A stretch of DNA of 45,004 nt from a virus: positions 1 to 45,004 of the IMG/VR virus record IMGVR_UViG_3300045988_058230. One strand, written 5' to 3'. The notes below the pieces were generated by a model. That model made no database searches. It worked only from the letters and a program-made list of their open reading frames with translations, and was not told where the DNA came from. Position 1 is the stretch's first letter, and each line of letters opens with the position of its first letter. A program made the position numbers and the translations under genes. Below, piece by piece: positions 1 through 45,004 of this stretch.

Positions 1-55
1 GAGCGCGGCGCGTGTGTGTAGACACGGCTGGTTCGATTCCAAGGGCGGCTTTTTA
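1..55. repeat. Left copy of the exact 55-bp terminal direct repeat (identical to 44950..45004).
   Basis: Read directly: gagcgcggcgcgtgtgtgtagacacggctggttcgattccaagggcggcttttta occurs at both termini. Confidence 0.95.
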
Positions 56-56
56 T

Positions 57-129
57 ATTCCCGTAGCTCAATCGGTAGAGCAGCGGTCTCCAAAACCGCA
101 TGTTGCAGGTTCGAGCCCTGCCGGGAGTG
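57..129 (+). tRNA. tRNA-Trp (anticodon CCA), canonical cloverleaf with no encoded CCA.
   Basis: Hand fold: acceptor ATTCCCG/CGGGAGT (one G-U pair); D arm GCTC-AATCGGTA-GAGC; anticodon arm GCGGT-CTCCAAA-ACCGC; variable loop ATGTT; T arm GCAGG-TTCGAGC-CCTGC. Confidence 0.85.
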
Positions 130-251
130 CTTGCGTGCCCTATGAGGGGGCCGCGCAATAGCGGGGCATTCGGCCGCGAAAGTTCCGGATGCAGCAGCGC
201 CCACCGTTTGACGCATGTCCAACGAACTGAATGCACGGGTGCTGCTTATAT

Positions 252-387
252 GCCGTCATAGCTCAATTGGCAGAGCGCCGTCCATTTAAGGCGGGACAAC
301 GTTGGTGACACCACGGGAACATCACTGCACAGCCAACCACTGCGCACATCCATTCCGTGGGTGCTGGTTCAAATCCAGCTGGCGGCA
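252..387 (+). tRNA. Non-canonical tRNA-like gene (136 nt). Acceptor, D and T arms are perfect. The anticodon loop is CATTTAA (UUU/Lys-like, but A at position 33). A 68-nt structured insertion replaces the variable loop.
   Basis: Acceptor GCCGTCA/TGGCGGC (7 bp, one G-U pair); D arm GCTC-AATTGGCA-GAGC; anticodon stem CCGTC/GGCGG; T arm GCTGG-TTCAAAT-CCAGC. Positions 295..362 fold into a two-segment hairpin, with pairing roughly 309-319 to 353-361 and 326-332 to 340-346. Confidence 0.55.
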
Positions 388-401
388 CATTCGATATTTT
401 G

Positions 402-432
402 ACCGTTCGGATTTCCGGGCGGTTTTTCTTTT
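402..432 (+). terminator. Rho-independent terminator closing the tRNA cluster, upstream of terS.
   Basis: Stem ACCGTTCGG/CCGGGCGGT (9 bp, two G-U pairs), loop ATTT, followed by TTTTTCTTTT. Confidence 0.7.
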
Positions 433-4578: not shown

Positions 4579-4749
4579 GAAGTTTGGGATTGTCGTAATC
4601 AACGATGATTTTTTCTTGAACTTTTGCCGTGATTTTAAGCCCCCGTGTGGTTACATTAAGCCAAAACACGCGCGGCCTTCCTACGGAAATGGCGCAAAGC
4701 CGCATGGAGCACACAAACGCCTTATTAGGACAATGGAAGGATTCAGAAA

Positions 4750-6813: not shown

Positions 6814-6890
6814 GCCGCTTTAGCTCAGTCTGGCAGAGCACCGGACTTTTAATCCGGGGGCCGTGGGTTCAAGCCCCACAGGCGGCACCA
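6814..6890 (+). tRNA. tRNA-Lys (anticodon UUU), canonical, with encoded CCA.
   Basis: Acceptor GCCGCTT/AGGCGGC; D arm GCTC..GAGC; anticodon arm CCGGA-CTTTTAA-TCCGG; T arm GTGGG-TTCAAGC-CCCAC; 3' end ACCA. Confidence 0.9.
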
Positions 6891-27762: not shown

Positions 27763-28896
27763 TCAGTACTTCATCTTCTGCATTTCCTGCAACAAATAGG
27801 CTGGATCGTTGTGGGACACGTACTTGTTTGCCGTGGTGGAGAAATTTTTGTGCCCAAGGATGGCCTGCACGGCGGTCTTTTCTAAGCCGCACTCCACCAT
27901 CTTGCTACTGGCCGTGTGGCGCAGCGTGTGTGGATGCACCCCCTCTATGTGGCATTCCTGCATCAACGCCCGGAACTTTGTAGCCACGTTGCGCTTATCC
28001 AGCTTTGTGCCGGTCTTGGATGGAATCAGCCACTCACAGCCGCTATCAAGCATCCAAAAGGCAATGATCTTGTAAATGGGCTCAAGGATGGGGATGATGC
28101 GGTTCTTGCCTGCTTCTGTCTTTTCACCGCCCTGCATGTACCGCTCTTTCAGGTGCACATCCTCGCAGCGCATGGAAAGCAGCTCGTCAATGCGCATACC
28201 GGTATAAAGCAGCACCATTGCAATTTGCGCCGTCTGCCCAAACTTCGGGTCATTTTGTCGGCTGCTGATCCGCTCGATCTCTTGGGCGGTCAGGGTGCGC
28301 TCTTCTTTTCCTGTAGCCGCCGGGAGCTGCAGTAGCATGGCGTAATTTTTGTTTATAATGTCCTGCGCCATTGCCCACTCGCAGATCTGGCTGAAAAGTG
28401 TGCGCTGCTTTTCGCAGGAGCTGCGGGAAAGTCCCTTTTCCACCATTGCGTCAATGACCTGTTGATAATCTGCCGCTTTTAAGTCCCGCAATTGTCGGTC
28501 GTATAGCGGAACAGCCTTTGCATAGGCCAGCTCGTACCCCTTTTGCATGTCCGTGCTGAGCTTGTCAAATTTGGGCTGCGCTTTCCATTTGGCATAGGCA
28601 TCCGCAAAGGTGCATTTCAGACGCGCTGCGGGCGTGTTCTGGGCGTTGTAAGCGTCCAGCGCTTGTACGGCTTCGCCTGCCGTTTCAAACGTCCCCAGAA
28701 CGTCCCTTTGGGCTGTAAGCGCCACATACGGTCTTGCCCGCGTCCCACTCAGTTTATACACGCTGCCGCTGCCCTTGGGACGGCGGCGCTTTTTTCTTTG
28801 CTGCGGGGCGGCTTCCGGCTGCTTCTTCCCGCACCACGGACAAAAAGAAGCACCATCCGGGATCTCTTTCCTGCAGCATGGTCTCACGCATTTCAT
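27763..28896 (-). CDS. int: Tyrosine integrase with an N-terminal zinc ribbon.
   Basis: 377 aa. It begins MKCVRPCCRKEIPDGASFCPWCGKK and carries catalytic-type motifs TGMRIDELL, HTLRHTASS, LGH and NKYVSH (Tyr). Confidence 0.9.
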   Translation of the reverse strand: MKCVRPCCRKEIPDGASFCPWCGKKQPEAAPQQRKKRRRPKGSGSVYKLSGTRARPYVALTAQRDVLGTFETAGEAVQALDAYNAQNTPAARLKCTFADAYAKWKAQPKFDKLSTDMQKGYELAYAKAVPLYDRQLRDLKAADYQQVIDAMVEKGLSRSSCEKQRTLFSQICEWAMAQDIINKNYAMLLQLPAATGKEERTLTAQEIERISSRQNDPKFGQTAQIAMVLLYTGMRIDELLSMRCEDVHLKERYMQGGEKTEAGKNRIIPILEPIYKIIAFWMLDSGCEWLIPSKTGTKLDKRNVATKFRALMQECHIEGVHPHTLRHTASSKMVECGLEKTAVQAILGHKNFSTTANKYVSHNDPAYLLQEMQKMKY

Positions 28897-28899
28897 GGC

Positions 28900-29487
28900 T
28901 TACTCCTTTTTCTGCCCGATATATCCAAAGGCACCATTTTCAGCAGCGGCCCTTCCGGCCTTGTAGTTGATCTTCAGGTCGTCAATGGGAGGTTGCGGAT
29001 CGTCCGGGCATGGGTCAAGGCCCGCGATCTGCGCATAGGTATACTGGTCTATGATGGTCCCGCATACACTGGCCCTGTTGTTGAGTGGGCAGTGCAGGTT
29101 TGCAGCTATCTCCGATATGACAGCAGGCGGGCTGCTGCCGTGACTGCCCTTCAGTATGAAGAGAAGCAGCTTTTTCGTCAGTGGCGGCAAGTTTACCACG
29201 AGACGGCGCAGCTCCGCGTTTAGCTCATCGTCGGCCTTGCCGTCATCCGGCACTTTGTACAGATCCGGGTGGATCATCTCCATGAACATAGATATGGGCG
29301 ACACGCCACACGCCGTGCACCAGTCCATGATCTCGTCACTGTCCGGGCTGGTGCAGCCTTTTTCCCAGCTCTGCACGGTGCGCTCTCCTTTTTCGATGCG
29401 CCTTGCGATCTCCGCTTGGCTCAGGCCAGCAGACACCCGTGCTTTTGCAAGTGCTTTCCCGATTTGGCTCGCCGTAAAATAACTCAT
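28900..29487 (-). CDS. XRE-family HTH repressor-like protein with a C-terminal domain.
   Basis: ORF trimmed to the ATG at 29487 behind GGGGGTGAAAG. HTH stretch: LSQAEIARRIEKGERTVQSWEKG. It is coupled to int. Confidence 0.75.
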   Translation of the reverse strand: MSYFTASQIGKALAKARVSAGLSQAEIARRIEKGERTVQSWEKGCTSPDSDEIMDWCTACGVSPISMFMEMIHPDLYKVPDDGKADDELNAELRRLVVNLPPLTKKLLLFILKGSHGSSPPAVISEIAANLHCPLNNRASVCGTIIDQYTYAQIAGLDPCPDDPQPPIDDLKINYKAGRAAAENGAFGYIGQKKE

Positions 29488-29525
29488 ACTTTCACCCCCA
29501 TAAAACCAGTGTGTTTTTAACAAAA

Positions 29526-29552
29526 AATGGCGCAGACTTTTTCTGCGCCATT
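29526..29552. promoter_or_regulatory. Perfect 11-bp inverted repeat (AATGGCGCAGA-CTTTT-TCTGCGCCATT) in the divergent control region.
   Basis: Read directly. It could be an operator or a bidirectional hairpin. Confidence 0.5.
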
Positions 29553-29645
29553 CGACAAATTTTATCCGTATTTTGTTTTCCAACGGCGCATGGTAAAATC
29601 TGGATTATAAATCGTAGATGTGCACAAAAGAAAGGAGAAAACAAA

Positions 29646-43790: not shown

Positions 43791-44090
43791 ATGCTTGATA
43801 TGCTATTTGAAGTTGCAAGCACGCTGTTCATGGCAACACTTGCAGGATTTTTCATCTGGTTTGTTCTTAGCGATGGCAACCCAATTGAATATTTCAAGCG
43901 GTGGCGCAACCGCAACAAACCTTGCCTTTGCGACCGGTGCGTTTTCTTAAATCAAAAATTTGGAGCGTCAGAATCCGGATATCACTATATCTGCCGGAGA
44001 AGTGACAAAGACGAAGGATACATAAATCCGCCCGAATATTGCAACGATTTTGAAGAAAGGAGCAACAATGACCCGCACATGGATACCTGA
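43791..44090 (+). CDS. Membrane-anchored Cys-containing protein.
   Basis: ATG at 43791. It has an N-terminal transmembrane segment, FEVASTLFMATLAGFFIWFVL. Confidence 0.5.
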   Translation: MLDMLFEVASTLFMATLAGFFIWFVLSDGNPIEYFKRWRNRNKPCLCDRCVFLNQKFGASESGYHYICRRSDKDEGYINPPEYCNDFEERSNNDPHMDT

Positions 44091-44523
44091 CACTGACGCC
44101 CAGAAGCAGGACAAAACCGATTACCGCACCGTTAAGGCGTGGCTAAACCGCTACCGCGAAGCAGAAAAAAGATACTACTTGCTGTCTGACCGTCTGGCCG
44201 AAGCGCAGGAGGCCACCCGGCACATTACCCAGAGCCTCAGCGCGGCCCCCGGCGGCAGCAAAGATGGCCAGAGCCTTGCCCGGGCGGTGGAACGCGAGGA
44301 GGAAGCGGAGCGCCGCGCTTATGAGCAAAGAGCGGTCTGCGACAGGCTGTTTCTTGAGATAAAAAGCGCACTTGACCGGATCCAGAACGAAAAAGCATAC
44401 ACGGTGCTGTACAAGTACTATCTCGATTGCCTCACGTGGGACAGGGTCGCAAAAGATATGAATTACTCTCTGCGCATGGTCTATGTCTTGCGGCGCAAAG
44501 CAATGGAGGAGCTGAGCCTTTAA
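44068..44523 (+). CDS. Late-gene transcriptional regulator (DUF1492/ArpU/RinA-like, sigma region-4-like C-terminus).
   Basis: ATG at 44068 behind AAAGGAG. The C-terminal region reads VLYKYYLDCLTWDRVAKDMNYSLRMVYVLRRKAMEEL. It is the last gene before the packaging module on the circle. Confidence 0.65.
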   Translation: MTRTWIPDTDAQKQDKTDYRTVKAWLNRYREAEKRYYLLSDRLAEAQEATRHITQSLSAAPGGSKDGQSLARAVEREEEAERRAYEQRAVCDRLFLEIKSALDRIQNEKAYTVLYKYYLDCLTWDRVAKDMNYSLRMVYVLRRKAMEELSL

Positions 44524-44707
44524 AAACATTGCACTGTCATTACATTGCGGTTTCACTATCGCATGGTGTAAAATTGTATCATCGGAAAAGCCAAAAGGCA
44601 AACCGATGAACGCAGCCTCCGAAACGTGTCCCTTCTTGGCATTTTCCTCCTTTTCTACTTGCAGGTACCGGGCTTTGCTCTCTTCACGTTTCGCGGGCTG
44701 CTTCTAT

Positions 44708-44778
44708 GCGATACACTGAAACAAAGGCAGCCTGCCGCTCATGAGAGACAGGAGACGGTTCGATTCCGCCGTATCGCA
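44708..44778 (+). ncRNA. tRNA-like element with a perfect acceptor stem and T arm but no canonical anticodon arm.
   Basis: Acceptor GCGATAC/GTATCGC (7/7 bp), T arm GACGG-TTCGATT-CCGCC (4/5 bp), 3' end A-CC. The middle 39 nt folds only as an irregular hairpin (CCTG..CTC-ATGA-GAG..CAGG). Confidence 0.4.
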
Positions 44779-44784
44779 CCGTAT

Positions 44785-44890
44785 GGCGCATGGACTAGAC
44801 AACCCGCAAGGCCGCACGTGCAACCTCCCGTGCCGAGAAAAGGCCTTAGAATCCTTGCCAAGGTGTAGCTTTCCTGACAGGATGTGCGCC
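44785..44890 (+). ncRNA. Unassigned structured RNA candidate, closed by a GGCGCA/TGCGCC helix.
   Basis: Hand-found helices: 44785-44790 with 44885-44890; GCAAGG/CCTTGC; GCACG/CGTGC with a CAACC-containing loop. A terminator follows. No family was recognised. Confidence 0.3.
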
Positions 44891-44896
44891 AACCAA

Positions 44897-44926
44897 CAGC
44901 CCCGGCGGAAAACCGGAGCTGTTTTT
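44897..44926 (+). terminator. Rho-independent terminator.
   Basis: Stem CAGCCCCGG/CCGGAGCTG (one mismatch), loop CGGAAAA, then TTTTT. Confidence 0.7.
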
Positions 44927-44930
44927 ATAT

Positions 44931-44998
44931 GCCGCCTGAGCGCAGTTTGGAGCGCGGCGCGTGTGTGTAGACACGGCTGGTTCGATTCCAAGGGCGGC
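44931..44998 (+). ncRNA. Degenerate tRNA-like element (68 nt) that spans the circular junction.
   Basis: Acceptor GCCGCCT/GGGCGGC. The D arm GCGC-AGTTTGGA-GCGC is textbook and the T loop TTCGATT is present. However, the T stem has only 3 bp, and the anticodon hairpin CGTGT-GTGTAG-ACACG has a 6-nt loop. Confidence 0.4.
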
Positions 44999-45004
44999 TT
45001 TTTA
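44950..45004. repeat. Right copy of the exact 55-bp terminal direct repeat (identical to 1..55).
   Basis: Base-for-base identity with 1..55. The length matches a common assembler k-mer overlap for circular contigs. Confidence 0.95.

What the first reader, a model, noticed from the sequence alone, without database searches (positions are those of the whole stretch)
44708..44998. Two further degenerate tRNA-like elements and a terminator-capped structured RNA precede the canonical tRNA-Trp
44708..44778 has a perfect acceptor stem and a T arm but no anticodon arm. 44931..44998 has a textbook D arm and a T loop, but a 3-bp T stem and a 6-nt anticodon loop. Between them, 44785..44890 folds into a closed multi-helix RNA that ends at a good terminator. 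One of its hairpin loops (TGCAACCTCC) and the 3' flank (CCAACCA) echo the CCAACCA loop of the 252..387 insert. In total the junction cluster holds three aberrant tRNA-like elements and one canonical tRNA, Trp at 57..129. The aberrant elements could be decaying tRNA genes, tRNA-mimic decoys or regulatory RNAs.
Basis: seen in the sequence. Interest (0 to 1): 0.65.

Follow-up and report, generated by a model that had tools for sequence, protein, structure and literature searches.

The report
Swappable tRNA-like modules in phage leader RNA
The two "broken tRNAs" and the folded RNA between them are conserved parts of an undescribed structured RNA array at the start of the packaging operon of temperate gut phages, in which only the tRNA half that processing enzymes recognise is preserved.

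Summary
The observation largely holds. E1 (44708-44781) and E3 (44931-44999) are tRNA-shaped, but neither Rfam nor ARAGORN accepts them as tRNAs. The RNA between them (44784-44891) is a real structured RNA ending at a terminator.

They are not recent pseudogenes. More than 150 related viral contigs carry the same aberrant elements at 94-100% identity.

The slot that E1 occupies holds at least 17 unrelated cassette sequences in relatives. All keep a 7-8 bp acceptor stem and a T arm, sit after ...UAU, and are followed by N-C-C-R. None has a 5-bp/7-nt anticodon arm.

The middle RNA occurs in 8 sequence types with one shared architecture. Its P2 hairpin carries an ACCUCC (anti-Shine-Dalgarno-like) motif in an unpaired apical region. 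Pairing is 96.7% in register against at most 51% when slid, and 11 pairs change on both sides.

The array lies between a DUF1492 late-regulator gene and terS/terL, downstream of a conserved promoter-like motif. Some relatives lack the cassette and middle RNA, so the module is accessory.

Best reading: these are non-decoding tRNA "top-half" modules that act as RNase P/RNase Z processing handles in a polycistronic RNA array. Processing would release a roughly 145-nt anti-SD small RNA. This function is inferred, not shown.

The parts
44545..44585 (+). Promoter-like region: TTGCGG (44545-50), 18 nt, TAAAAT (44569-74), inside the conserved motif GGTGTAAAATNNTANCATCGG (44565-85)
   Evidence: Read. 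The 21-nt motif is present in 197 of 204 related loci, including clades with different downstream RNAs. The simple sigma-70 scan did not list it. Its role as a promoter is inferred.
44581..44607 (+). 5' hairpin AUCGG...CCGAU at the inferred start of the transcript
   Evidence: Fold. The same hairpin, with changed loop sequence, is seen in L002 and L137.
44608..44707 (+). Long leader stem (44611-28 pairs with 44685-705) enclosing a CU-rich loop with UUUUCCUCCUUUUCU (44642-56). It ends in ...GCUGCUUCUAU immediately 5' of E1
   Evidence: z=-3.4 to -5.0 in three lineages. The inner stem changes on both strands: GAAACGUG/CACGUUUC in the window against GCACCAUG/CAUGGUGUG in L002.
44708..44781 (+). 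E1: tRNA-like cassette, type A. Acceptor 44708-14/44771-77; D-like stem 44716-18/44728-30; long hairpin 44731-52; T arm 44754-70; discriminator A 44778; CCG 44779-81
   Evidence: Present in 109 loci as 21 variants. No Rfam or ARAGORN tRNA call.
44784..44891 (+). Middle RNA: four-helix junction. P1 UGGCGCAU/AUGUGCGCCA; P1a GG..CC; P2 44808-47 with apical loop UGCAACCUCC at 44819-28 (anti-SD-like); junction GAAUCC; P3 44851-83
   Evidence: The covariance model R1 hits 48 sequences of 8 types. 96.7% of cells are paired against at most 51% when slid. 11 pairs change on both sides, and 5 of 6 pairs of outer P2 covary. No Rfam family matches.
44896..44926 (+). Intrinsic terminator ACAGCCCCGG-cggaaaa-CCGGAGCUGU followed by UUUUU
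   Evidence: Relatives have terminators of unrelated sequence at the same position. The simple scan missed it because of the internal mismatch.
44931..44999 (+). E3: tRNA-like cassette. Acceptor 44931-37/44992-98; D arm 44940-55; stem 44960-64/44971-75 with loop 44965-70; 3-bp T stem 44978-80/44988-90; T loop 44981-87; followed by a U run
   Evidence: 98.5% of cells are paired. All 3 covarying pairs lie in the anticodon-like stem, whose loop varies from 4 to 9 nt. In the L002 clade E3 occupies the E1 slot and ends in ACCA.
57..129 (+). Canonical tRNA-Trp (CCA), the next member of the array (context)
   Evidence: ARAGORN and Rfam, 65.5 bits.
192..251 (+). Second stem ending in GCUGCUUAUAU, immediately 5' of the insert-bearing tRNA. 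It repeats the 'stem + UAU + cassette' unit (context)
   Evidence: Fold. The sequence parallels the leader's GCUGCUUCUAU.
252..387 (+). tRNA with a roughly 65-nt insert in the variable region (context). The same type occupies the E1 slot in L217, L226 and L293
   Evidence: Rfam tRNA 46.4 bits. Slot occupancy.
401..430 (+). Second intrinsic terminator, before the terS ribosome-binding site GAGAGGUGGUG (443-453) (context)
   Evidence: The RBS was read and is conserved in L001, L004, L087 and L289.

Best explanation
E1 and E3 are conserved, non-decoding, tRNA-derived modules. They are not dying genes. They belong to an accessory polycistronic RNA array in the promoter-proximal leader of the packaging (terS/terL) operon of a family of temperate gut phages.

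The inferred first transcript runs from about 44581 to the terminator at about 44926. It contains a 5' hairpin, a long stem with a CU-rich loop, a cassette slot holding E1, and a four-helix RNA whose P2 hairpin carries an anti-Shine-Dalgarno-like ACCUCC motif in an unpaired apical region. After the terminator come E3, tRNA-Trp, a second stem, and an insert-bearing tRNA.

In the cassettes, only the features that tRNA-processing enzymes read are kept:
- the 7-8 bp acceptor stem;
- the T arm and T loop;
- U at position -1 and A at position -2;
- in the first slot, a 3' N-C-C-R.

The most likely mechanism is as follows. RNase P cuts 5' of each cassette. RNase Z or 3' exonucleases trim at the discriminator or CCA. 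This punctuates the array into a leader-stem RNA, small tRNA-like RNAs, real tRNAs, and a roughly 145-nt middle RNA that ends at its own terminator. The middle RNA then probably acts through its anti-SD loop, by pairing with Shine-Dalgarno regions or by mimicking the 16S 3' end.

Shown: the structures, their conservation and covariation, the cassette slot, the genomic context, and the absence of decoding features.

Inferred: transcription, processing by RNase P and RNase Z, and any trans-acting role.
For: 1. Conservation.
- E1, the middle RNA, the terminator and E3 are found in 62-81 of 85 loci, mostly at 94-100% identity.
- E3 is found in 168 of 326 sequences searched (325 loci plus the window), including lineages whose middle RNA scores only 25-36 bits against the window-type model.

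2. The cassette slot.
- At least 17 sequence types, 50 to 151 nt long, sit directly after the conserved ...GCUGCUUCUAU and before N-C-C-R.
- Positions were fixed by these flanks, not by folding. Acceptor pairs in register are 98 of 105, against 26-49% when slid.
- T stems are 4-5 of 5.

3. No decoding capacity.
- No cassette has a 5-bp/7-nt anticodon arm.
- The loop of the E3 stem varies from 4 to 9 nt.
- Rfam tRNA-clan models reject types A-D and the L210, L212, L223 and E3 types.

4. Selection concentrated on the top half. In the E1 type, 2 of 31 sites vary there against 11 of 37 elsewhere (Fisher p=0.028).

5. The middle RNA.
- It has 8 sequence types with one architecture.
- 96.7% of cells are paired, and 11 pairs change on both sides.
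- ACCUCC lies in an unpaired apical region of P2 in most types; L002 has CCCUCC. L247 has CACCUCCUUUCU.
- A terminator follows in every type.

6. The unit 'stem + UAU + cassette' occurs twice in the window.

7. Context. A DUF1492 / phrog_36 late regulator lies upstream and terS/terL downstream.

8. Precedent. RNase P and RNase Z process tRNA-like structures in non-tRNA transcripts. Examples are MALAT1/mascRNA, plant mitochondrial t-elements and phage P1/P7 C4 RNA (PMC4919922).
Against: - No expression or end-mapping data exist, so processing is inferred from shape alone.
- If the cassettes were only cleavage signals, the near-invariance of almost every E3 nucleotide would be unexplained.
- The same applies to the frequent swapping of unrelated cassettes among nearly identical backbones. 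Both features suggest that cassette identity matters.
- tRNA-Trp sits next to E3 and could itself supply a cleavage site.
- The covariation alignment for the middle RNA was fitted to the model, which leans towards the structure.
- The middle RNA is no more stable than shuffled sequence (z=+0.09).
- Some relatives (L004 type, L087) lack the cassette and middle RNA entirely. The module is therefore not needed for late gene expression.
Confidence: 0.5

Rival explanations
1. Plain tRNA pseudogenes: leftovers of a phage tRNA array that have lost function and are drifting.
For: The cassettes look tRNA-derived. L137 carries a near-canonical tRNA (44 bits) with a broken anticodon stem in the same slot. 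The window's E1 has a fresh A.C mismatch in its T stem. Some relatives lack the module altogether.
Against: E1 and E3 are 94-100% identical across more than 100 contigs. E3 persists unchanged in lineages where neighbouring RNAs have diverged beyond easy alignment. Acceptor and T-arm pairing is kept in at least 15 unrelated cassettes. Variation avoids the top half. The stem changes seen in E3 are compensatory.
Confidence: 0.08
2. Anti-defence decoys or specificity RNAs. The tRNA-like cassettes would be released as small RNAs that soak up, or are sensed by, host factors acting on the tRNA acceptor/T-arm half. Candidates are nucleotidyltransferase or nuclease toxins, or other tRNA-directed immunity. 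Alternatively they could act as heteroimmunity determinants, like P1/P7 C4 RNA. Cassette swapping would reflect an arms race.
For: Many unrelated cassettes occupy one slot among otherwise near-identical phages. The module is accessory. E3 is conserved at nearly every position, which suggests a sequence-specific partner. Every first-slot cassette carries an encoded N-C-C-R end.
Against: The cassettes lack tRNA-like anticodon loops, so they cannot mimic substrates of anticodon nucleases. No partner gene was found among the window proteins scanned. A search for antisense targets of E1, E3 and the middle RNA in the genome gave only chance-level 9-11 nt matches. Phage mosaicism alone can produce cassette swapping.
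Confidence: 0.15
3. One large unprocessed structured RNA, a functional analogue of GOLLD or ROOL. The tRNA-like modules would be structural or tethered parts of a roughly 350-880 nt phage RNA that acts as a whole, for example in multimeric assembly or ribosome binding.
For: About 880 nt is non-coding and densely structured, has embedded tRNAs and lies in a phage. This is the context reported for GOLLD and ROOL. Those RNAs lie near tRNA islands, sometimes carry tRNAs in the GOLLD linker, and GOLLD pulls down ribosomes (PMC12286853; PMC5737381). Two anti-SD-like motifs could contact mRNA or ribosomal partners.
Against: No match to the GOLLD or ROOL models, even on contiguous loci. An internal terminator splits the region. 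The modules are individually present or absent, and are swapped, in relatives. That fits a string of separate units better than one folded body.
Confidence: 0.12
4. A cis-acting control element of the late operon. The leader plus middle RNA plus terminator would form an attenuator or processive-antitermination site. Analogies are the lambda PR'-tR' 6S region and HK022 put RNA. The anti-SD loop could also mask the terS ribosome-binding site. The tRNA-like parts would be passengers.
For: The array lies between a late-regulator gene (DUF1492; a weak Q-like PHROG hit at 2e-4) and terS. In L002 and L289 terS starts a few tens of nucleotides after the terminator, so read-through is required there. 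The terS RBS GAGAGGUGGUG is conserved and partly complementary to ACCUC.
Against: No alternative antiterminator pairing with the terminator arms is visible. L004-type and L087 relatives keep the promoter-like motif and a terminator (L004 also the leader stem) but lack the cassette and middle RNA, so these are not needed for control. In the window the middle RNA is about 550 nt from the terS RBS.
Confidence: 0.12
5. Unusual but working tRNAs, for example frameshift or nonsense suppressors with 8-nt loops or 8/4 or 9/3 'allo-tRNA' geometry, used in translation.
For: E1 can present an 8-nt loop CUCAUGAG, and type B an 8-nt loop CUGCGCAA. Type D has an 8/4 acceptor/T geometry, and E3 with its usual extra 5' G is 9/3-like. 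Relatives carry CUA-anticodon versions of the neighbouring tRNA-Trp. Phage allo-tRNAs are known (PMC5389517).
Against: The stems under these loops are 7-9 bp, not 5-6. The loop of the E3 stem varies from 4 to 9 nt, with no conserved triplet or U33. The smallest cassette is 50 nt and has no third arm at all. Discriminator bases vary among A, U, C and G.
Confidence: 0.03

Closest known systems
Canonical bacterial/phage tRNA genes and their pseudogenes (Rfam RF00005)
   Same: 7-bp acceptor stem. T arm with the GGUUCGAnUCC box. In E3, a D arm with A14, G18, G19 and A21 equivalents. Placement in an array with real tRNAs. U at position -1.
   Different: No 5-bp/7-nt anticodon arm, and no variable loop in E3. 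The T stem has 3 bp in E3. Both score below the Rfam threshold, and ARAGORN is negative. Both are conserved as they are across many genomes rather than decaying.
Irregular tRNAs: allo-tRNAs with 8/4 or 9/3 acceptor/T geometry, polycistrons of irregular tRNAs, and tRNA-Other of Bacillus cereus (Mukai et al. 2017, PMC5389517)
   Same: Non-canonical cloverleaves found in bacteria and phages, sometimes in polycistrons, with suspected non-translational roles. Type D cassettes are 8/4, and E3 is 9/3-like.
   Different: Allo-tRNAs keep a recognisable anticodon loop and a long variable arm and can be charged by SerRS. The elements here have no stable anticodon loop. Their only common denominator is the acceptor/T half. 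They sit in a fixed slot of a leader RNA.
tRNA-like processing modules in non-tRNA transcripts: MALAT1/mascRNA, plant mitochondrial t-elements, and the phage P1/P7 C4 antisense RNA precursor (reviewed in PMC4919922)
   Same: A tRNA-shaped element embedded in a longer RNA. It is recognised by RNase P (and RNase Z) to create the ends of neighbouring RNAs, and a small tRNA-like RNA is released. C4 is likewise promoter-proximal in a phage operon.
   Different: Processing has not been shown here. There is no match to the Rfam models. No antisense target was found. The slot accepts many unrelated cassettes. The host is most likely Gram-positive, whereas C4 belongs to enterobacterial phages.
GOLLD and ROOL large phage/prophage RNAs (PMC12286853, PMC5737381)
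   Same: Structured non-coding RNAs of phages that lie next to, or contain, tRNAs. Their function is unknown. A link to ribosomes has been suggested.
   Different: No sequence or structure match to either model. The RNA here is much smaller, is interrupted by a terminator, and is built of modules that are individually swapped or absent.
tRNA-like domain of tmRNA
   Same: An acceptor stem plus T arm without an anticodon arm, with discriminator A followed by CC.
   Different: No G3:U70 pair and no pseudoknots. No credible tag reading frame. The 5' and 3' halves are contiguous rather than enclosing an mRNA-like domain. ARAGORN and Rfam are negative.
Promoter-proximal late-operon leaders with terminators and tRNA genes in lambdoid phages: the PR'-tR' 6S RNA region, and the tRNA genes downstream of it in Stx phages (from my own knowledge, not checked here)
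   Same: A regulator gene, then a late promoter, a short terminated transcript, tRNA genes and late genes.
   Different: The lambda 6S RNA has no reported conserved elaborate structure and no tRNA-like cassette. The regulator here is a DUF1492 protein, not Q.

Membership tests
tRNA (RF00005 / ARAGORN definition) | Covariance-model score at or above the gathering threshold (29 bits), or an ARAGORN call | tested here: not met
   E1 has no RF00005 hit at E<=10. E3 matches only tRNA-Sec at 17 bits, E=1.7. ARAGORN finds only Trp and Lys in the window. Cassette types B, C, D, L210, L212 and L223 are also negative.
tRNA (RF00005 / ARAGORN definition) | 7-bp acceptor stem closing the molecule | tested here: met
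   E1 has GCGATAC/GTATCGC. E3 has GCCGCCU/GGGCGGC. Across 15 cassette types, 98 of 105 pairs are in register.
tRNA (RF00005 / ARAGORN definition) | Anticodon arm: 5-bp stem and 7-nt loop with U33 and a conserved triplet | tested here: not met
   E1 has a 22-nt imperfect hairpin. E3 has a 5-bp stem whose loop is 4-9 nt long and varies in sequence.
tRNA (RF00005 / ARAGORN definition) | T arm: 5-bp stem and 7-nt TPsiC-type loop | tested here: inconclusive
   The E1 loop TTCGATT is canonical. Its stem is 5/5 in most relatives and 4/5 in the window. E3 has the canonical loop but only a 3-bp stem.
allo-tRNA (8/4 or 9/3; PMC5389517) | 12-bp acceptor branch split 8/4 or 9/3 | tested here: inconclusive
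   Type D cassettes are 8/4. With the extra 5' G found in most relatives, E3 gives 8 of 9 acceptor pairs plus 3 T-stem pairs. The window copy lacks that G.
allo-tRNA (8/4 or 9/3; PMC5389517) | Long variable arm and a functional anticodon loop | tested here: not met
   E3 has no variable region and no stable loop. E1 has neither.
tmRNA | tRNA-like domain formed by the two RNA ends, G3:U70, pseudoknots, and a tag ORF ending in a hydrophobic tail | tested here: not met
   ARAGORN finds no tmRNA and Rfam has no hit. Pair 3:70 is G-C. The short GCN-started frames noticed in two cassette types are not conserved among types.
GOLLD (RF01998) / ROOL (RF03087) | Match to the family covariance model | tested here: not met
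   No hit at E<=1 to E<=5 on contiguous related loci covering the whole region, nor on the window ends.
C4/CI phage antisense RNA | Match to the family model, with loops complementary to target sites in the same operon | tested here: not met
   No Rfam hit. Only chance-level 9-11 nt complementarities were found in the genome.
T-box or other riboswitch | Known aptamer model, with mutually exclusive terminator and antiterminator pairing | tested here: not met
   No Rfam hit. No segment complementary to either terminator arm was found upstream by reading.
RNase P / RNase Z substrate (functional class) | Coaxial acceptor and T-arm helix of about 12 bp, U at -1, and 3' NCC; cleavage shown in vitro or in vivo | not testable with these tools
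   The shape features are present in all first-slot cassettes. Cleavage itself needs an experiment.

The most novel reading that the evidence does not exclude
Temperate gut phages carry a modular RNA 'socket' at the head of their packaging operon. Unrelated, non-decoding tRNA top-half cassettes are hot-swapped into it as specificity determinants, either as decoys or as recognition handles for host tRNA-directed immunity or processing factors. A co-transcribed four-helix RNA mimics the 16S rRNA anti-Shine-Dalgarno tail to reprogramme or probe translation initiation. Together these would form a previously unknown RNA-only accessory system of phages.
Probability: 0.15. Interest if true: 0.85.

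Novelty: new variant of a known kind. Interest (0 to 1): 0.6.

Why it matters
Phage tRNA arrays are usually read as codon-usage helpers or as escape from anticodon nucleases. Aberrant members are usually dismissed as pseudogenes.

Here the aberrant members are the conserved ones. Selection keeps only the acceptor and T-arm half. That slot is tied to a new structured RNA carrying an anti-Shine-Dalgarno-like motif.

If processing is confirmed, this would be a bacterial-virus counterpart of tRNA punctuation and of mascRNA-type processing. It would also be a source of phage small RNAs that annotation pipelines miss.

If the cassettes are specificity determinants, it would open a new class of RNA-based phage-host interaction.

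Either way, the middle RNA and the cassette slot are candidates for a new RNA family description.

Tried and rejected
- **Mini-tmRNA idea.** E1 and type C contain short GCN-started frames ending in TGA. These are not conserved across cassette types. There is no G3:U70 pair, and ARAGORN and Rfam are negative.
- **Antisense targets.** All 9-14 nt reverse-complement matches of E1, E3, the middle RNA and the leader in the genome are at chance level. One exception is a 10-nt match between the P1 3' strand of the middle RNA (GGAUGUGCGC) and the insert of the 252-387 tRNA (GCGCACAUCC, 342-351). It is not kept in insert-type cassettes of other lineages, so I left it as a note.
- **'CCAACCA echo'.** It is not conserved.
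- **Riboswitch or T-box reading of the middle RNA.** There is no Rfam hit and no antiterminator alternative.
- **MAFFT/RNAalifold on the middle RNA alone.** This failed to align the variable helices; only P1 and the base of P3 were recovered. I therefore built a covariance model instead.
- **Thermodynamic support.** It is weak for E1, E3 and the middle RNA, with z from +0.1 to -1.6.
- **Host identification.**
  - An exact-motif scan of one genome per species gave only two chance hits, in a cyanobacterial and a Bacteroidetes MAG.
  - The regulator protein is not on record as an exact sequence.
  - GenBank phage hits are unannotated contigs from human faecal samples.
- **Partner enzyme.** No RNA ligase, nucleotidyltransferase or aaRS-like gene was found among the 16 window proteins scanned. 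They include integrase, repressor, RecT, DnaD-like protein, methyltransferase, RusA and terminase. The remaining proteins were not scanned.
- **Attachment-site reading.** I rejected this because the integrase lies 17 kb away and both acceptor strands are present.
Full report
**Setting**

The window is a circular contig: bases 1-55 repeat 44950-45004. The 'junction cluster' is therefore one continuous non-coding stretch of about 880 nt.

Upstream lies a gene at 44050-44523. Its product matches DUF1492 and PHROG 36 (transcriptional regulator), with a weak Q-like hit. Downstream lie terS (from about 458) and terL (912-2159).

The phage is temperate, with an integrase at 27763-28896 and a CI-like repressor at 28900-29583 on the minus strand. 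Its closest GenBank relatives are unannotated contigs from human faecal samples.

**Checking the observation**

E1 has the perfect 7-bp acceptor stem and the T loop TTCGATT. Its T stem carries one A.C mismatch that most relatives do not have.

The place of an anticodon arm is not empty. It holds a 22-nt imperfect hairpin, preceded by a 3-bp D-like stem.

- a D arm with the usual A and GG positions;
- a 5-bp stem with a 6-nt loop;
- no variable loop;
- a 3-bp T stem.

The 11-nt box GGTTCGANTCC occurs at two distinct sites, against 0.09 expected. A looser 'T loop + 7-bp acceptor' pattern turns up about 2.9 times per shuffled genome. Shape alone would therefore be weak evidence.

ARAGORN reports only tRNA-Trp (57-130) and tRNA-Lys (6814-6890). 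Rfam gives nothing for E1 and only a sub-threshold tRNA-Sec match (17 bits, E=1.7) for E3.

**Relatives**

A protein-anchored search returned 80 viral contigs with the same cluster. A conserved 21-nt promoter-like motif and a pattern specific to the middle RNA brought the total to 325 loci.

E1, the middle RNA, the terminator and E3 are present in 62-81 of the first 85 loci, mostly at 94-100% identity. Relatives do not have intact canonical tRNAs at these places. They have the same aberrant elements, or other aberrant ones.

**The E1 position is a cassette slot**

The slot lies directly after the conserved ...GCUGCUUCUAU and before N-C-C-R. Relatives carry at least 17 unrelated sequences there, 50 to 151 nt long. 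These include:
- the E1 type (109 loci, 21 variants);
- two types of about 100 nt with a long extra arm;
- 8/4-geometry types of 67 nt;
- a 50-nt minihelix-like type;
- the E3 type, in the L002 clade, where it ends in ACCA;
- the insert-bearing tRNA type of window 252-387;
- one near-canonical tRNA with a broken anticodon stem (L137; 44 bits).

I fixed positions by the flanks rather than by folding. On that basis 98 of 105 acceptor pairs are in register, against 26-49% when the 3' strand is slid. One of the 15 types was mis-anchored by my script and accounts for most of the misses.

T stems are 4-5 of 5. Position -1 is U in every type and -2 is nearly always A. None has a 5-bp/7-nt anticodon arm. 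Rfam rejects all types tested except L137 and the insert-bearing tRNA.

Within the E1 type, 2 of 31 acceptor and T-arm sites vary, against 11 of 37 elsewhere (Fisher p=0.028).

**E3**

E3 was found in 168 of 326 sequences searched (325 loci plus the window), as 39 variants. Its acceptor stem, D arm and T loop are nearly invariant. This holds even in lineages whose middle RNA is so different that it scores only 25-36 bits against the window-type model.

The cloverleaf is 98.5% paired, against 32-57% when slid. All three pairs that change on both sides lie in the anticodon-like stem. Its loop ranges from 4 to 9 nt with no constant triplet.

The discriminator varies among U, A and G. In most loci E3 follows the terminator and precedes tRNA-Trp by a few nucleotides.

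**The middle RNA**

Its folding energy is unremarkable (z=+0.09). However, eight sequence types share one architecture:
- P1, UGRCGCAU/AUGUGCGYCA;
- a small GG..CC hairpin;
- a long P2;
- the junction GAAUCC;
- P3, AUCC../..GGAU;
- an intrinsic terminator of varying sequence downstream.

A covariance model built from the window type and L001 aligned 48 sequences. In that alignment 96.7% of cells are paired against at most 51% when slid. Eleven pairs change on both sides, and five of the six outer P2 pairs show several pair types. The alignment is fitted to the model, which favours the structure.

An unpaired apical region of P2 carries an anti-SD-like motif in all eight types: ACCUCC in most and CCCUCC in L002. 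One type has CACCUCCUUUCU. From my own knowledge, this matches the 3' tail of Firmicute 16S rRNA.

The CU-rich loop of the leader stem carries a similar UCCUCC in most, but not all, lineages. No Rfam family matches any part, including on contiguous loci.

**Larger unit**

Upstream of E1 lie a conserved promoter-like motif, a 5' hairpin and a long stem. The inner part of that stem changes on both strands between lineages.

The pattern 'stem ending in GCUGCUU(C/A)UAU, then cassette' recurs at 192-251 and 252-387.

Some relatives keep the promoter-like motif and a terminator but lack the cassette and middle RNA. These are the L004 type (which also keeps the leader stem) and L087. Another clade with the same promoter motif has a different structured RNA followed by canonical tRNAs. 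The cassette-plus-middle-RNA module is therefore accessory.

**Interpretation**

What survives in every cassette is what RNase P, RNase Z, CCA-adding enzyme and EF-Tu read on a tRNA. That is the coaxial acceptor/T helix, the T loop, U at -1 and an NCC 3' end. What decoding needs is gone.

I therefore favour the following reading. The cassettes are tRNA-derived processing handles that punctuate a polycistronic RNA array. They release a roughly 145-nt terminator-ended RNA with an anti-SD loop. Precedents are mascRNA/MALAT1, plant t-elements and the RNase P-processed C4 RNA of phages P1 and P7.

This is inference. No expression or cleavage data are available.

Two facts fit it poorly: the near-invariance of E3, and the frequent exchange of unrelated cassettes among near-identical backbones. 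Both hint that cassette identity matters. That keeps a decoy or specificity role alive.

The other readings are listed with their evidence under the rival explanations: a GOLLD/ROOL-like single large RNA, a cis-acting attenuator, plain pseudogenes, and odd decoding tRNAs.

**Comparison and novelty**

The elements fail the membership tests for tRNA, tmRNA, allo-tRNA, GOLLD/ROOL, C4 RNA and riboswitches.

The closest descriptions are the 'irregular tRNAs' and irregular-tRNA polycistrons of Mukai et al., and tRNA-like processing modules.

Three things appear new:
- the fixed slot that accepts many unrelated top-half cassettes;
- its coupling to a conserved anti-SD-bearing four-helix RNA;
- the position at the head of the packaging operon.

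I rate this a new variant of a known kind, with interest 0.6.

Noticed in passing
L038 3962-4037, L048 3951-4026, L137 (tRNA after E3): In some relatives the tRNA at the tRNA-Trp position has a CUA anticodon, making it an amber suppressor; ARAGORN labels it 'Pyl'. This hints at TAG read-through or recoding in part of this phage group. The window's copy is the ordinary CCA.
   Followed up: partly
window 252-387: This tRNA scores 46 bits in Rfam, carries an insert of about 65 nt in the variable region, and has the anticodon loop CAUUUAA (A at position 33, UUU). The same type occupies the first cassette slot in L217, L226 and L293. Relatives have other loops, GAGUUAA in L217 and UUUUGCA in L215.
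   Followed up: partly
window 44880-44889 and 342-351: The P1 3' strand of the middle RNA (GGAUGUGCGC) is perfectly complementary to GCGCACAUCC inside the insert of the 252-387 tRNA. It is one of several chance-level 10-mers genome-wide, but the only one inside the cluster. It is not kept in insert-type cassettes of other lineages.
   Followed up: partly
window 44608-44705: A long leader stem encloses a CU-rich loop containing UUUUCCUCCUUUUCU (44642-56). This is a second anti-Shine-Dalgarno-like motif. The stem is supported by two-sided changes between lineages.
   Followed up: partly
L004 331-415: Relatives that lack the cassette and middle RNA carry another odd tRNA-like element after the terminator. 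It has a 7-bp acceptor GCAGCCG/CGGCUGC and a normal D arm, a GGAGGG/CCCUCC hairpin in place of a T arm, and ends in UCCA.
   Followed up: no
L089, L091, L128, L131, L148 (first 300 nt after the promoter motif): A separate clade shares the 21-nt promoter-like motif and a CU-rich leader. It has a different structured RNA with two GCAA-tetraloop hairpins, then a terminator and canonical tRNAs (UUG and CCA anticodons). L148 has a large insertion in this RNA.
   Followed up: no
window 1-55 and 44950-45004: There is a 55-nt terminal repeat, so the contig is circular and the true genome length is 44949 nt. The repeat falls inside E3.
   Followed up: yes
window 6814-6890: A second canonical tRNA (Lys, UUU) lies among the head genes. 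In relatives a tRNA-Lys(UUU) or tRNA-Met(CAU) lies about 350-400 nt downstream of the insert-bearing tRNA (locus coordinates roughly 4600-4730).
   Followed up: no
cassette hairpin loops: E1 44738-45; type B in L009; E3 variants in L247 and L256: Several cassette hairpins present self-complementary loop sequences: CUCAUGAG, UGCGCA and AAUAUU. These could allow loop-loop dimerisation. The enrichment over chance was not tested.
   Followed up: no
window 44708-44779 and 329-388, minus strand: Weak Rfam hits to 'Plastid-ycf2 5UTR' appear on the strand opposite tRNA-like elements. They seem to reflect the reverse complement of a T arm plus acceptor stem, not a real family member.
   Followed up: no
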